Shown: piece after piece, positions 36,235 to 42,079 of the stretch
How positions within the stretch are numbered: position 1 is the first letter of the stretch
How the letters are laid out: the number at the start of each line of letters is the position of its first letter
DNA from: an uncultured archaeon
GTDB taxonomy: Archaea > Asgardarchaeota > Lokiarchaeia > Sigyniarchaeales > SOKP01
Assembly (NCBI GenBank): GCA_964486045.1
Contig: CAZALK010000003.1
Location: 1 to 64,000 of the forward strand
Direction: 5' to 3'
DNA: 64,000 nucleotides
Position numbers and translations under genes: made by a program
Notes under the pieces: model-generated
Database searches by the model: none
The model's input: the letters and a program-made list of their open reading frames with translations, nothing else
What the model was told of the DNA's origin: nothing

Positions 36235-36945
36235 TTATATAAGTAATTTTTTCTGCAATTTTATATATTCATTATAGTCCAGAAATTCTTTTTCTACATA
36301 CTCAAAAACTATTTTATATAATTGCCTTAAAAGTTCTTCAGGAAAAGCTTTTTGTTCAAAAATAACCTCATAAACTAACTCTTCAGTAAGGATTTGAGCA
36401 TTTATAGATTGGTGGCTGAGTAAAAAACTCATCATCGCTTTATCCACTTTAGTTTTGATAAGCTTTTTTATGACATTCAGACTGATATCTCTCTTAGGAT
36501 CGATGAAATAGGGAAAATTCATGTCATCAAGGATTTTGATGTAGTTTAAGGAGTCTGTAATCTTTTCCACGCAATATTCTAGTGAACTTACGGGAAGATT
36601 AAATTTTTGACAATATTCTTTCTTGGTTTCATGAGCGGGGAAGCTAAAGGGGTGCCTAGAAATTATATAATACGCCCCTATAAAGAATTTGAACAAATTA
36701 TGAGGTATCTTTCTGTTGTTTCTTAAATATTTATATACAAGCGAAACCGTGTCAAGTAGAAAATTCTCGTTAATCTCAAATTGCTTTAAAAAATCTTGAC
36801 CATCTTTTAATAAATCAATGGTAATACGTTCTTTGGTGTTTGTTACTTCATATTCAGGAGTATAAAGTTCTAACATTTCACACACACTATTTTGCTTTGT
36901 TTTTAAAGGGAAGTAATATCGATATATTTTTAGGATAATATTCAT
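36235..36945 (-). CDS. Protein with a single TFIIB/cyclin-fold-like repeat (start may be the internal MLELY)
   Basis: FIGAYYIISR...ETKKEYCQKFNLPVSSLEYCVEKI resembles the TFB C-terminal repeat (A.LYIA.R...TQ.EIA...VT..TI). Confidence 0.6.
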   Translation of the reverse strand: MNIILKIYRYYFPLKTKQNSVCEMLELYTPEYEVTNTKERITIDLLKDGQDFLKQFEINENFLLDTVSLVYKYLRNNRKIPHNLFKFFIGAYYIISRHPFSFPAHETKKEYCQKFNLPVSSLEYCVEKITDSLNYIKILDDMNFPYFIDPKRDISLNVIKKLIKTKVDKAMMSFLLSHQSINAQILTEELVYEVIFEQKAFPEELLRQLYKIVFEYVEKEFLDYNEYIKLQKKLLI

Positions 36946-37124: not shown

Positions 37125-37589
37125 ATGACATCTGACACAGAGATAATCAATCAAGAAATAGACTTAGAATCTAAAAGAATAACTGTTAGTATTGATGAAG
37201 TAACAGATAAAATAATAGAAAATTTAATTGGTGTGAAAGGTAGATCAAAATCTTCTGTAATTTATCAAATAATTCGAGATTGGATTGATGACAATTCTGA
37301 ACTTATTCTAAATAACTGGGGTATAAATTTTGCTACAATAAGAAGACAAGTTATAAGTAAGTATAAAGAAGTTCCAGTTAAAAAAGAGCTTTCTGATTCT
37401 GAAATGAATGTTTTGAATCGACTTACAGAATTATTTAAAACAGTAAAAAGTATTAGTACGAAAGAATTGGCTGAGGAAGTGGATGTCGATACAAAAACAC
37501 TTAGAAATTTAATATTTAATAACCGTGTGAAATTAGAAGCAGCTGGACTTAAACTTGCTTATGAAGATGGCAAATTCTTTCCGACTTAA
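37125..37589 (+). CDS. Ribbon-helix-helix + HTH transcriptional regulator
   Basis: KRITVSIDEVTDKIIE...SKSSVIYQIIRDWI (RHH) and ISTKELAEEVDVDTKTLRNLI (HTH). Confidence 0.75.
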   Translation: MTSDTEIINQEIDLESKRITVSIDEVTDKIIENLIGVKGRSKSSVIYQIIRDWIDDNSELILNNWGINFATIRRQVISKYKEVPVKKELSDSEMNVLNRLTELFKTVKSISTKELAEEVDVDTKTLRNLIFNNRVKLEAAGLKLAYEDGKFFPT

Positions 37590-37627: not shown

Positions 37628-37816
37628 ATGAGTTCAAGACGATTAGAAATGTATGAAAACATTGATGTTTCCCTGCTTGTTATCCCCTTTTCAAAGGTAT
37701 TTAAGCCCTATAAAGCAAACTTTATCTATTCTGGAAATGAAAATATTCCCTTTAAAGAAAGAGAAACAGAATTTAAAATGATATTTAGACAAGAATTTTC
37801 AGATGTTTTAAGATAG
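37628..37816 (+). CDS. Small protein, IPFS/IYSGxExIPF family, copy 1
   Basis: DVSLLVIPFS...IYSGNENIPFKER...FKMIFRQEF. Confidence 0.8.
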   Translation: MSSRRLEMYENIDVSLLVIPFSKVFKPYKANFIYSGNENIPFKERETEFKMIFRQEFSDVLR

Positions 37817-38017
37817 AAAACAGATCACTTTTAACATTACTACTTTACTTCAATCTGGTTTTATATTTTGATAGAAATTATATTTTGATAAAGAAATAGT
37901 TCAAAATTTTACCATATTTCCTTATATTATAACAATAGTATTTAATGACATAATTGAGAATAAATATTTAATCTATAATAATTGTCATTAACTGTGAATA
38001 TTTGGTATTAAATAAAC

Positions 38018-38221
38018 ATGCTAAAAGATACTGTAAACGGAGAGCCAAGAGCTTTTTCAGAATTGATTTTTAATATTTCAAGTGCCATAATTCCTTATTC
38101 CAAGATGATTCAATCATCGAATGTATCAGATATCTATTCGGGTGAAGAAAGAATTCCATTCCATAAGAGAACTCCAGAATATATATCGATTTTAAGAAAG
38201 GAATTTGCAGTTATTTCTTAA
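38018..38221 (+). CDS. Small protein, same family, copy 2
   Basis: NISSAIIPYS...IYSGEERIPFHKR...YISILRKEF. Confidence 0.8.
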   Translation: MLKDTVNGEPRAFSELIFNISSAIIPYSKMIQSSNVSDIYSGEERIPFHKRTPEYISILRKEFAVIS

Positions 38222-38450
38222 TAATACCCAAATATTGAAGAATTCTTTAGAATTTAGGATAAAATTCAAAATCTCTTTTTCCTTCCATCTGTAGCTGAAG
38301 TTCAAATTTATAAGTTGTTTAAAGCAACTTTAAATCAAAAAATCAAGGTTTCACCTTTAATCCTATCTTTTACTGAAACATCCTCAAAAATCTTTTAATT
38401 TATTGAGAATTAGATTTCAATATACAACCGAAATTAAGAGATTTACAGAA

Positions 38451-39674
38451 ATGAAAGGAAATTTTGAGATTCGTAAATTAATTGAACAAGATCGTGAAGT
38501 ATACAAAAAGTTGATGCGATATGCTTTTGAAACAACCATGAATAGTTATGAAGATTTAAGATGGCCTTCAGAGAAAATACCTATCGATTGGCATTATGGC
38601 GCGTTTGATAAGGAGCAATTAGTAGCGGGAGTAGGTATTATTCCATTTGAAATTCGAATGCGTTCTCAAGAGTTTAACATGTATGGAGTTGGAGGAGTTG
38701 CTTCAAAACCTGAATATCGTAATCTTGGTATCATAAGAGAATTAATGGTAAAAATTTTTAAAGATTTATATGAAAATAATATCCCGTTATCTGTTTTATA
38801 TCCATTTAAGCATTTATTTTATGAGATGTTAGGATACAAACTTGTTGATGAACATTTTTCCTACGAATTTAATATATCGGATATTATATACAGAGAAACA
38901 GAGTATCACATGAAAGAAGTCGAAAGGATAAATGATGATATTATAAGTGTTTATGATCGCGCTATTTTAAATTTTGATTATATTGCTAAAAGACCTGAGA
39001 TTCAATATTGGAGAGGCTTATATAAAAACAACTACAAATTCATTTGCTACAACGGAGATCAACCTGTAGGTTATGTAATAATAATCTTTACCAAAAGAGA
39101 TGCTGTGTGGTTAGAAAAAAAAGATGCCATGTGGTTAGAACATCCAGAGAAAACAATATTAATCCAAGAGGCGTTCTGGCTTGATCAAACGGCTAAGCAA
39201 ACAATCTTTAATTTTCTGTGGAGTCATCGAGATCAACGAAAATATATAGTTGGAACTTTTTCTGCGCATGAAAATATAATAGATCTTTTAAAAACTCCCC
39301 GAATAAAAACTAGGTATATAGTAGATAATTCTCAACTGAGAATAATAGATTTAAAAGCGGTTTTAGAGAATCTGAAGTATCCATTTGATAATTTTTATAT
39401 AATATTTCATACAAAGGATGACTTTTGTCCCTGGAATGAAGGATTCTTCACCCTAACGTCAAAAGAAGAACAAATCAATGTAGAGTATCATAAATCTTCG
39501 GAAAACTCAGCAGATATCGAATTAGATATTAGTTATTTAGCACAATTGCTAGCAGGTTTTAGAACAGTCAATGATCTTTTAGAATTCGGTTTTGTTTCTG
39601 TAAATCCTGAAAAACTTGAGCTATTACAAGCTTTATTTCCATTGACAAATAATTATTTTCATGACTTTTTCTAA
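38451..39674 (+). CDS. Eis-like GNAT acetyltransferase with SCP2-like C-terminus
   Basis: GVGGVASKPEYRNLG, LSVLYPF..FYE..GY, RIIDL, DDFCPWNEG, ending HDFF. ATG 38451 is preferred. Confidence 0.9.
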   Translation: MKGNFEIRKLIEQDREVYKKLMRYAFETTMNSYEDLRWPSEKIPIDWHYGAFDKEQLVAGVGIIPFEIRMRSQEFNMYGVGGVASKPEYRNLGIIRELMVKIFKDLYENNIPLSVLYPFKHLFYEMLGYKLVDEHFSYEFNISDIIYRETEYHMKEVERINDDIISVYDRAILNFDYIAKRPEIQYWRGLYKNNYKFICYNGDQPVGYVIIIFTKRDAVWLEKKDAMWLEHPEKTILIQEAFWLDQTAKQTIFNFLWSHRDQRKYIVGTFSAHENIIDLLKTPRIKTRYIVDNSQLRIIDLKAVLENLKYPFDNFYIIFHTKDDFCPWNEGFFTLTSKEEQINVEYHKSSENSADIELDISYLAQLLAGFRTVNDLLEFGFVSVNPEKLELLQALFPLTNNYFHDFF

Positions 39675-39858
39675 ACTCACTTTATTCCTGTTTCAAGATT
39701 TTATTCTTAATTTATTTAGAATTATCCCATAATTCATTGGAAAATGCGGAAAAGCCAATATTTTTTATTTAAAAACCTTTGGTTTTCTTTATTATTATAT
39801 AATACAACTTCATTAGATGTTTATAAGAATAATTTGATAACTTTAGTTCTCACTCGAT

Positions 39859-40086
39859 GTGAAAATCAATATGGTAATGGATGATAAGATTACAACTTTT
39901 CTTGAAATTATCGATGAATTTGAAGATGAATTTTATCCGGATATCTCAGCTGCAGTAATTTCTTTCTCAAATGTAGGTATTAAGAAAGAAGAACAATATA
40001 TTTATTATGGGTATGAACAAATTCCTTTTAATAAAAGACATCCTACATACCAGAAGATTTTCATTTATGAATTCTTACATAGTTAA
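39859..40086 (+). CDS. Small protein, same family, copy 3
   Basis: DISAAVISFS...IYYGYEQIPFNKR...YQKIFIYEF. Confidence 0.8.
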   Translation: MKINMVMDDKITTFLEIIDEFEDEFYPDISAAVISFSNVGIKKEEQYIYYGYEQIPFNKRHPTYQKIFIYEFLHS

Positions 40087-40177
40087 ACTACTTCTCTTAC
40101 AAAATTAAGAACTCAAGAAAAAAACTGTCTCTTTTTATATATCAATTAAGATAGTTCGTAATCTATATTATTTTAAA

Positions 40178-40492
40178 ATGGCAACTATGAATTCAAGAAC
40201 TATTGAAAAACAGGTTGAAGATTTTTTAGATAATTCATTTAACGCAGAGGATCACTTCGTTAATAATGAAAATCAAAAAAAAAAGTTTGTTTTACTCTCA
40301 AGACTCGTTGCAGATTTATTTAAATGTGAAAATTCAGCAGTTTGTTTCCATAACATTTCAAATTTAATAGTTCTAATCTTAAACATCTACAATGAAAAAT
40401 TTCCAGTAGATATATATTCTAATGGGAGAACGGGTTCGAAAAAAAAAAGCGACAATGACTTTAAACGTATAATCAGAGAGAATTTGGTATAA
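40178..40492 (+). CDS. Small protein, divergent member of the same family
   Basis: NISNLIV...DIYSNG...FKRIIRENL, with an N-terminal extension. Confidence 0.65.
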   Translation: MATMNSRTIEKQVEDFLDNSFNAEDHFVNNENQKKKFVLLSRLVADLFKCENSAVCFHNISNLIVLILNIYNEKFPVDIYSNGRTGSKKKSDNDFKRIIRENLV

Positions 40493-40607
40493 GAGTTGGA
40501 TAAACAATTTATTTTATCAGAAAACATCAATAAATTTGTCGGGTGTTCTCTCTTAAATAATAATAATATTATATTAAAAATAAAAAGAAATAAGTAAGGG
40601 GTTCAAA

Positions 40608-40826
40608 TTGAGCTTAAAAGTAGATTTTAAAAAAATTGTGAATATTGACCATGATATTGAAGAGGTTGACGTTTTTCAAGGTATATCTCAGTTAATCATC
40701 CCTTTCTCGGTTGTCTTTAATATCAATCACTCTCCAGAAATATATACTGGAGAGGAACTAATTCCGTTCAGGGAAAAAAATATAAAATTCAGGAAAATAT
40801 TAATTGACGAGTTTATTAATGGTTAA
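40608..40826 (+). CDS. Small protein, same family, copy 4
   Basis: GISQLIIPFS...IYTGEELIPFREK...FRKILIDEF. Confidence 0.8.
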   Translation: MSLKVDFKKIVNIDHDIEEVDVFQGISQLIIPFSVVFNINHSPEIYTGEELIPFREKNIKFRKILIDEFING

Positions 40827-41779: not shown

Positions 41780-42079
41780 TTAAAGTGACTTTGGCATAAG
41801 AAATATATTTAAACACATCGGACAAGAATTATATTTTAACAGCCAAGAATCTATACATGTAGAATGATATTGACTGTCACAGAATGAGCATTTTATTGTA
41901 TTATATTTACTTGAACTGATGTATTCATGACAAATTGTACATTGAATCTTTAGTTTTGAAGATTTCTCGTTTTTCTTCAACTTAATGCCACAAAAACAAC
42001 AGTAATTTAATTGAGACACATTCAATCCTTGAATTCCTCTCCCACAATTAGGGCAAAAATTAAATTTTGTTAAGGGCAA
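41780..42079 (-). CDS. Zn-ribbon + RING-finger protein (E3-ligase-like)
   Basis: FCPNCG...YCCFCG, then CTIC...CSFC...HSTC..W...CPMC. Confidence 0.85.
   Translation of the reverse strand: MPLTKFNFCPNCGRGIQGLNVSQLNYCCFCGIKLKKNEKSSKLKIQCTICHEYISSSKYNTIKCSFCDSQYHSTCIDSWLLKYNSCPMCLNIFLMPKSL

What the first reader, a model, noticed from the sequence alone, without database searches (positions are those of the whole stretch)
37628..40826. Array of five small paralogous proteins with an unrecognised conserved motif
Seen in sequence: ORFs at 37628, 38018, 39859 and 40608 share (D/N/G)(I/V)SxxxI(P/S)(F/Y)S-x10-IY(S/T/Y)GxExIPFxx(R/K)xxx(F/Y)xxI(F/L)xxEF at the C-terminus. 40178 is a divergent member. 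All are on the + strand with their own AT-rich upstream regions and unrelated N-termini, and the DNA is too diverged for a recent duplication. Inference: a family of interchangeable small modulators with a conserved docking core and variable N-terminus. I cannot assign it to any named family.
Basis: partly seen in the sequence, partly recalled or inferred. Interest (0 to 1): 0.72.

Follow-up and report, generated by a model that had tools for sequence, protein, structure and literature searches.

The report
Lokiarchaeal small-protein family, five-gene array
Five neighbouring genes encode real, conserved 62-104-residue proteins of an unnamed family found only in one family of Loki-type Asgard archaea; its oldest copy sits in an operon with a DNA-binding regulator, but its function is still only inferred.

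Summary
ORFs A (37628), B (38018), C (39859) and E (40608) share a ~47-residue core and hit each other at E 1e-7 to 4e-4 against all 63,078 ORFs of the genome. D (40178) is a true divergent member (profile-profile 95.6%, E 1e-8), with conserved orthologues in relatives.

The family matches nothing in Pfam, NCBIfam, PHROGs, PDB sequences or PDB folds. It occurs in 101 of 134 genomes of one taxonomic family and in 0 of 232 genomes from 29 other families of the phylum, at 1-8 copies per genome.

Orthologues show dN below dS. Copies group by chromosomal position, so the paralogues are old and maintained rather than interchangeable.

The likely founder copy lies 7-38 bp downstream of an RHH-wHTH regulator gene in four genera, and it is the only copy in one of them.

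Best reading (about 0.35): a non-enzymatic binding module that began as an operon partner of that regulator. Against tight pairing, the regulator swaps allelic classes without matching change in A, and some genera keep it without the small gene.

No complex prediction or expression data were available.

The parts
37628..37816 (+). Member A (62 aa), the probable founder copy. It starts 38 bp downstream of the RHH-wHTH gene and is probably co-transcribed with it.
   Evidence: HMM E 8e-24. The same position is kept in 6/6 syntenic relatives, in 21/29 genus genomes for the top-scoring copy, and in genera g18, g20 and g21.
38018..38221 (+). Member B (67 aa), a younger tandem duplicate of A.
   Evidence: HMM E 1.6e-23. 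It is the only pair with residual DNA identity: A-B 70% over 88 bp. It forms a long unplaced branch in the tree.
39859..40086 (+). Member C (75 aa, acidic, pI 4.7).
   Evidence: HMM E 7e-23. Positional orthologues are L038:12819-13031 and L042:2432-2671. pI.
40178..40492 (+). Member D (104 aa), a divergent subfamily with a conserved ~50-aa N-terminal extension. The IPF motifs are lost; NIS..., DIYS and the C-terminal helix are kept.
   Evidence: hhalign of the D profile against the family profile gives 95.6%, E 1.1e-8. Orthologues lie directly upstream of the E orthologue in L037, L039 and L040. The D clade has 100/100 support. dN/dS is about 0.3.
40608..40826 (+). Member E (72 aa, TTG start, acidic, pI 5.0).
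   Evidence: HMM E 3e-21. Orthologues occur in five relatives at the same position. The E clade has 83/85 support.
37125..37589 (+). RHH-wHTH DNA-binding protein (154 aa), the operon partner of member A.
   Evidence: Pfam RHH_1 E 8.7e-5 and HrcA_DNA-bdg wHTH E 2.5e-4. Profile match to ParG, an RHH protein, at E 1.4e-3. Synteny.
36235..36945 (-). Conserved unknown protein transcribed divergently from the RHH-wHTH operon. It is context rather than a family member. The conserved part is 36238-36885.
   Evidence: It is a single-copy gene in 116/134 genomes of the taxonomic family. It has no Pfam, NCBIfam or PDB sequence match. The atlas finds only hypothetical Promethearchaeota clusters.

Best explanation
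These are five genuine genes of a lineage-specific family of small (about 60-105 aa), non-enzymatic proteins. Shown: the family is confined to one taxonomic family of Loki-type Asgard archaea, is inherited vertically at fixed chromosomal positions, and is under purifying selection. Its ~47-residue core has the pattern (I/L)S..(I/V)IPFS.F-(7-9)-DIY.G.E.IPF..R.P.(Y/F)(K/Q).I(L/F)..EF. Shown: the likely oldest copy lies directly behind an RHH-wHTH transcription-factor gene, divergent from a conserved core gene. Inferred: the core folds as a small helix-loop-helix module held together by its conserved aromatic, Pro and Gly positions, and it works by binding a partner protein. Inferred: the founder copy is made together with the RHH-wHTH regulator and acts either as its co-factor or as its regulated output. 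Inferred: later duplicates gained their own promoters and different N-terminal tails (pI 4.4 to 9.8), which give each paralogue a separate, non-redundant job.
For: Reality and selection: the profile finds 199 representatives among 1.84 billion proteins, nearly all 55-120 aa. In 143 sequences that mostly share 25-45% identity with the first, F is invariant and Y, G, E, F, E exceed 97%. dN/dS is about 0.2-0.5 in every orthologue pair of groups A, D and E. Range: 101/134 genomes of the family and 0/232 genomes in 29 other families of the phylum. Founder context: a gap of 7-38 bp after the RHH-wHTH gene in g1 (21/29 genomes), in g18, where it is the only strong copy, and in g20 and g21. Partial second RHH+module cassettes occur in two genomes. 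One natural wHTH-module fusion exists, P0007. Binding rather than catalysis: no conserved Cys, His or catalytic-type set is present; the conserved positions are hydrophobic, aromatic, Pro, Gly plus D, E, R, E. The AF2 model has pLDDT 92-94 over residues 41-60 and is helix-extended-helix. Non-redundancy: copies cluster by position, not by genome.
Against: The RHH-wHTH gene exists in allelic classes that cross genus boundaries (25% identity within the genus, 67% between genera). Member A instead follows the species proxy (r 0.80 against 0.37), and the partial correlation RHH~A is 0.14, p 0.12, so there is no co-evolution signal. Genera g22, g23, g24 and g28 keep the RHH-wHTH gene without a small gene behind it. 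No shared upstream 8-mer links the paralogues to the regulator's own intergenic region. The AF2 model has pTM of only 0.41 and matches no known fold, so even the fold is provisional.
Confidence: 0.35

Rival explanations
1. The members are small subunits or assembly factors of a lineage-specific complex unrelated to the RHH-wHTH protein, for example with the conserved 36235-type protein or the flanking RING-H2 protein. On this reading the operon position is only a historical accident.
For: Member A tracks the 36235-type protein and the species tree (r 0.80), not the regulator. The regulator persists without the small gene in four genera. A RING-H2 gene is a conserved right-hand neighbour of E.
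Against: The 36235-type gene is present in genera where the family HMM found no significant copy (g19 5/5). There is no fusion or tight adjacency with 36235 or the RING gene. Dispersed copies have heterogeneous neighbours.
Confidence: 0.15
2. The RHH-wHTH gene and member A form a toxin-antitoxin-like addiction pair: an RHH antitoxin/autorepressor upstream and a small toxin downstream.
For: The two-gene architecture has an RHH gene first and a short gap. The RHH gene evolves fast and shows allele-like classes. The C23 copy lies next to a MazE/AbrB-PIN pair.
Against: Members B-E and the C1 copy have no adjacent antitoxin candidate, yet they are conserved and under purifying selection. There is no similarity to any toxin family. 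Inheritance is vertical at a fixed locus rather than patchy and mobile. There is no RHH~A co-evolution.
Confidence: 0.08
3. The members are sliding-clamp (PCNA) or replisome-binding small proteins that use the near-C-terminal (K/Q)xI(L/F)xxEF as a degenerate PIP-like motif, in the manner of small archaeal PCNA inhibitors.
For: The motif lies close to the C-terminus and resembles Qxx(L/I/M)xx(F/Y)(F/Y) at positions 1, 4 and 8. The second conserved locus places one or two members behind a Hel308-like helicase gene.
Against: PIP position 7 is an invariant Glu, not an aromatic residue. Lys is commoner than Gln at position 1 (77 against 50 of 143). The motif is part of a confidently predicted helix that probably packs on the core. 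The resemblance comes from memory of the PIP consensus, not from a test.
Confidence: 0.05
4. The members are orphan immunity proteins for the polymorphic toxins that this genome carries.
For: Arrays of small paralogues are typical of immunity-gene islands. Earlier scan notes place a toxin-tip/antidote cassette at 57-60 kb of this window (not tested here).
Against: No toxin domain lies next to any copy. The core is strongly conserved and the orthologue groups are stable, the opposite of fast-turnover immunity genes.
Confidence: 0.04
5. The ORFs are chance open frames in AT-rich DNA.
For: They are short, the DNA is 26-29% GC, and two use non-ATG starts.
Against: There are hundreds of intact homologues in about 100 genomes with column-specific conservation and dN below dS.
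Confidence: 0.01

Closest known systems
Small archaeal regulators co-transcribed with or next to RHH genes, e.g. haloarchaeal CdrS (PMC8406309)
   Same: A very small archaeal protein gene sits in a short operon that involves a ribbon-helix-helix regulator. CdrS is a small protein co-transcribed with a partner gene.
   Different: CdrS is itself the RHH DNA binder and is linked to ftsZ2. The family here is not RHH: there is no Pfam RHH hit, and hhalign against the RHH-wHTH profile gives probability 0.03. It has no cell-division neighbour and has expanded to 1-8 paralogues.
Type II toxin-antitoxin cassettes with RHH antitoxins (survey: PMC2701414)
   Same: The gene order is an RHH gene followed closely by a small gene, and the RHH component evolves fast.
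   Different: Most copies stand alone, the family is vertically inherited in one lineage, and there is no toxin homology and no co-evolution.
Small PCNA-binding inhibitors of Thermococcales (TIP) and PIP-box peptides (own knowledge, not retrieved here)
   Same: The protein is about 60-70 aa and has a hydrophobic/aromatic motif near the C-terminus.
   Different: The motif fails the aromatic pair of the PIP consensus. There is no sequence relationship and no test of binding.
Pfam 'domain of unknown function' families restricted to single archaeal lineages
   Same: It is a lineage-restricted, conserved family that is annotated only as 'hypothetical protein'.
   Different: It is not yet in Pfam-A or NCBIfam.

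Membership tests
Any curated protein family (Pfam-A, NCBIfam, PHROGs) or solved structure | Significant profile match of the members | tested here: not met
   The five window proteins have 0 Pfam-A and NCBIfam families and only one noise PHROG hit (member E, E 0.047). No family recurs among 143 members at E<=1. The best PDB profile match is E 0.98. Foldseek PDB, Foldseek BFVD and VIA give no match.
Type II toxin (RHH-antitoxin cassette) | Each toxin gene is paired with an adjacent cognate antitoxin gene | tested here: not met
   Only A-type copies follow an RHH gene. B, C, D, E and the C1 copy have no such neighbour.
Type II toxin (RHH-antitoxin cassette) | Growth inhibition that is neutralised by the partner | not testable with these tools
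   This needs expression in a laboratory host.
Ribbon-helix-helix superfamily (CdrS-like small regulators) | N-terminal beta-strand plus two helices that match RHH profiles | tested here: not met
   There is no RHH Pfam hit. hhalign of the family against the RHH-wHTH alignment gives probability 0.03. The AF2 model shows no strand.
PIP-box clamp-binding peptides | Qxx(L/I/M)xx(F/Y/W)(F/Y/W) consensus | tested here: not met
   Column counts show K77/Q50 at position 1, E in 141/143 at position 7 and F in 143/143 at position 8.
PIP-box clamp-binding peptides | Binding to PCNA | not testable with these tools
   No complex prediction was available.
RiPP or bacteriocin precursor peptides | Conserved N-terminal leader, variable C-terminal core, adjacent modifying or export genes | tested here: not met
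   Conservation is reversed: the C-terminus is conserved and the N-terminus varies. Neighbours are heterogeneous, and the GNAT is present in only some syntenic loci.

The most novel reading that the evidence does not exclude
The family is a set of paralogous 'plug-in' microproteins. A common, conserved mini-domain docks on one hub protein of this Lokiarchaeal lineage, such as a transcription, replication or ubiquitin/RING component. The different N-terminal tails (acidic, basic or extended) reprogramme that hub. [quoted passage not shown]
Probability: 0.12. Interest if true: 0.7.

Novelty: categorically new. Interest (0 to 1): 0.4.

Why it matters
Asgard genomes are searched for clues to how eukaryotic cell biology arose, yet much of their lineage-specific gene content is unnamed. 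This work defines one such family cleanly. It gives a usable HMM and motif, a sharp taxonomic boundary (one family of the phylum), stable orthologue groups, and an anchoring context: the regulator operon next to a family-wide core gene. These make the family a tractable target for co-folding, pull-down and metatranscriptome work. Here 'new' means no detectable relatives. It does not mean that new biology has been shown, and orphan families of this kind are common in Asgard archaea, so the interest is moderate.

Tried and rejected
- Searches of the five proteins, and of all 143 aligned members, found nothing: Pfam, NCBIfam and PHROGs, a PDB sequence profile, Foldseek PDB and BFVD and VIA-wide on the AF2 model, and the ESM atlas.
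- Viral origin: a pattern scan of IMG/VR and a tblastn against phage records gave no hit.
- Decoy idea (module derived from a neighbouring gene): hhalign against the RHH-wHTH and 36235-type profiles was negative.
- Shared operator idea: no 8-mer is enriched across the seven upstream regions. The best p is 5.7e-4 with 951 k-mers tested.
- Co-evolution of A with the regulator: not significant.
- Fusion route to function: the module+~180-aa proteins of genera g22 and g23 (P0146 type) have no Pfam or PDB sequence match. Their AF2 model failed (pLDDT 44.5), and no homologue of these fusion proteins was found in this genome at E<=1e-5.
- Other fusions look like single events on short contigs, possibly gene shards: EVE+module, an OsmC fragment+module, and module+an LRR fragment.
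- The 91-aa gene ahead of the helicase-locus copies is not RHH-like.
- Charge: family pI ranges from 4.4 to 9.8, so there is no uniform DNA-mimic or DNA-binding character.
Full report
OBSERVATION
The five ORFs are present as described: A 37628-37816, B 38018-38221, C 39859-40086, D 40178-40492 and E 40608-40826, all on the + strand.
- A, B, C and E align with 14 invariant columns in the C-terminal ~47 residues.
- Each finds the others by phmmer at E 1e-7 to 4e-4 in a database of all 63,078 stop-to-stop ORFs of the 5.18-Mb genome.
- At the DNA level only A and B are still alignable, at 70% over 88 bp.
- A family HMM finds exactly six significant copies in the genome. Four are in the window; the others are C1:206676-206930(-) and C23:35568-35801(+). 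D ranks next, as the best sub-threshold ORF.

D is a true member.
- Its 103-105-aa orthologues in three related genomes hit the HMM at E 1.5e-7 to 5e-4.
- Those orthologues lie directly upstream of the E orthologue, as D does in the window.
- A profile of the four D orthologues matches the family profile at 95.6% probability, E 1.1e-8, over 52 columns.

- A has no upstream region of its own; it starts 38 bp after the preceding gene.
- Many members share an MSSK..(I/L)xK start.
- Each orthologue group conserves its own N-terminus.

THE FAMILY
A profile search of 1.84 billion representative proteins returned 199 representatives at E<=1e-3. Nearly all are 55-120 aa.

In a 143-sequence alignment whose members mostly share 25-45% identity with the first, the core reads (I/L)S..(I/V)IPFS.F-(7-9 residues)-DIY.G.E.IPF..R.P.(Y/F)(K/Q).I(L/F)..EF. 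The last F is invariant, and Y, G, E, F and E are present in over 97% of sequences.

Nei-Gojobori dN/dS is about 0.2-0.5 in every orthologue pair of groups A, D and E, with dS near or beyond saturation.

There is no match in any of the following:
- Pfam-A, NCBIfam or PHROGs, for the five proteins; scanning all 143 members singly against Pfam-A also found no recurrent family;
- a PDB sequence-profile search;
- the ESM atlas.

Public records call members 'hypothetical protein'. One comes from the Loki's Castle sediment metagenome.

AlphaFold2 with the 143-row alignment gives mean pLDDT 76 (92-94 over residues 41-60) and pTM 0.41. The model has a helix, a short helix at the first IPF/IPY motif, an extended segment, and a C-terminal helix. 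It matches no solved or viral predicted structure.

The conserved positions are hydrophobic, aromatic, Pro and Gly, plus one D, two E and one R. There is no Cys/His or catalytic-looking set. This points to a small folded binding module rather than an enzyme.

Whole-protein pI ranges from 4.4 to 9.8.

DISTRIBUTION
With the broad HMM the family is found in 101 of 134 genomes of the window's taxonomic family:
- g1 50/53;
- g20 37/42;
- g18 4/4;
- g22 7/10;
- g23 2/6;
- g29 1/1.

It is found in 0 of 232 sampled genomes from 29 other families of the phylum, including the sister family that holds closed 4.4-Mb and 6.0-Mb genomes.

Copy number is 1-8 per genome. Degenerate copies that keep only the IPFS strand-like motif and the C-terminal helix occur in g21. 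In g19, which lacks significant hits, a 76-aa ORF occupies the same position.

CONTEXT
The window locus is chromosomal and syntenic across the genus. The order is:
- a conserved 216-aa protein (36235 type, 73-84% identical), divergent from
- an RHH-wHTH gene (25-39% identical), followed after 9-38 bp by
- member A, then
- a variable interval, which often holds an Eis-like GNAT and other genes, then
- C, D and E, then
- a RING-H2 gene and an alpha/beta hydrolase.

In 21 of 29 genus genomes the best-scoring copy is the one behind the RHH-wHTH gene. Two genomes carry a second, partial RHH+module cassette.

In genus g18, which has one strong copy per genome, that copy is the one behind the RHH-wHTH gene, with gaps of 7-12 bp. 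The same holds in g20 and g21. This is therefore the most likely ancestral position.

One database protein (P0007) fuses the wHTH half of such a regulator to an A-type module.

A second conserved locus places one or two members behind a Hel308-like helicase and a 91-aa unknown gene. The C23 copy follows a MazE/AbrB-PIN pair. Other dispersed copies have unrelated neighbours.

A maximum-likelihood tree groups copies by position rather than by genome:
- D 100/100;
- E 83/85;
- three of four C 95/91;
- two helicase-locus subgroups 99/94 each;
- 9 label changes overall, against 25.7 in shuffles.

The paralogues therefore predate speciation within the genus and are kept separately.

LIMITS ON THE REGULATOR LINK
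- The 36235-type gene is a single-copy core gene of the whole taxonomic family (116/134). It is present even where the family HMM found no significant copy.
- The RHH-wHTH gene stays beside the 36235-type gene in g22, g23, g24 and g28 without a small gene behind it.
- The regulator falls into allelic classes that cross genus lines. The window's copy is 25% identical to that of a congener. That congener's copy is 67% identical to one from genus g20.
- Member A follows the species proxy instead (r 0.80 against 0.37 for the regulator). The partial correlation between regulator and A distances is 0.14, p 0.12.
- No 8-mer is shared beyond chance between the regulator's intergenic region and the upstream regions of the other copies.
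- The module is not derived from either neighbour.

INTERPRETATION
The best-supported reading has confidence of about 0.35. It is a non-enzymatic binding module whose founder copy is expressed with the RHH-wHTH regulator, either as its co-factor or as its output. Its duplicates acquired their own promoters and distinct tails.

Shown: family membership, range, selection, synteny, operon-like spacing and stable orthologue groups.
Inferred: the fold, binding as the mode of action, and any link to transcription.

Rivals are:
- a subunit of another lineage-specific complex (0.15);
- a toxin-antitoxin-like pair (0.08; most copies lack a partner, and there is no co-evolution);
- a clamp-binding protein with a PIP-like C-terminus (0.05; the aromatic pair is not met);
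- orphan immunity genes (0.04);
- chance ORFs (0.01).

The remaining probability is for functions not yet imagined.

WHAT LED NOWHERE
- The module+180-aa fusion proteins of g22 and g23 gave no family or structure match, and their AF2 model failed.
- Viral collections hold no relative.

VERDICT
This is a real, cleanly delimited and previously unnamed small-protein family. It is new in the sense of having no detectable relatives. Interest is moderate because the function is not established and orphan families are common in Asgard genomes.

Noticed in passing
window 37125-37589 (+) and orthologues in L037-L042, L055-L057, L067, L076, L077: The RHH-wHTH gene keeps its position between two vertically inherited genes, but it occurs in at least three allelic classes that cross genus boundaries. 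Identity is 25% between congeners and 59-67% between genera g1 and g20. This suggests in-situ replacement or long-lived polymorphism.
   Followed up: partly
window 36235-36945 (-): This unknown 216-aa protein is a single-copy gene in 116/134 genomes of the taxonomic family. It gives weak matches (E 1e-7 to 1e-5) to the N-terminal ~160-200 residues of 640-890-aa ORFs in several relatives. It has no Pfam or PDB sequence match, and the TFIIB/cyclin idea is unsupported by sequence.
   Followed up: partly
window 41780-42079 (-): A 99-aa zinc-ribbon plus RING-H2 finger protein (zf-RING_2, E 8e-7) is conserved at the right edge of the array in six relatives. It is a candidate E3-ligase-like gene of the Asgard ubiquitin system.
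   Followed up: no
window 38403-39674 (+): An Eis-like three-domain GNAT (Acetyltransf_9 + Acetyltransf_17 + SCP2_2) sits inside the array. The interval between A and the distal members holds different cargo in different species, and the GNAT is present in only some.
   Followed up: partly
G000 C1:199000-214000 (L043) and L046-L048, L063: A second conserved locus has a Hel308-like helicase, then a 91-aa unknown gene, then one or two family members. These converge on a DUF1922 zinc-ribbon gene and a second helicase.
   Followed up: partly
P0126, P0028, P0139, P0130/P0146 (database proteins; L049-L054): Rare fusions of the module exist: with a full EVE domain, with an OsmC N-terminal fragment, with an LRR fragment, and, in genera g22 and g23, one or two modules ahead of a conserved ~180-aa unknown domain. 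No homologue of these fusion proteins was found in this genome at E<=1e-5.
   Followed up: partly
window 40275-40284 and 40439-40448: There are two runs of ten A inside gene D. The window's D copy ends ...RENLV, whereas the orthologues end in (K/N)EF plus three further residues (e.g. KEEFLLE), so its C-terminus has drifted.
   Followed up: no
G000 C23:34359-35073 (L044:6359-7073): A MazE/AbrB-type antitoxin gene and a PIN-domain gene (vapBC-like pair) lie directly upstream of the C23 family copy.
   Followed up: no
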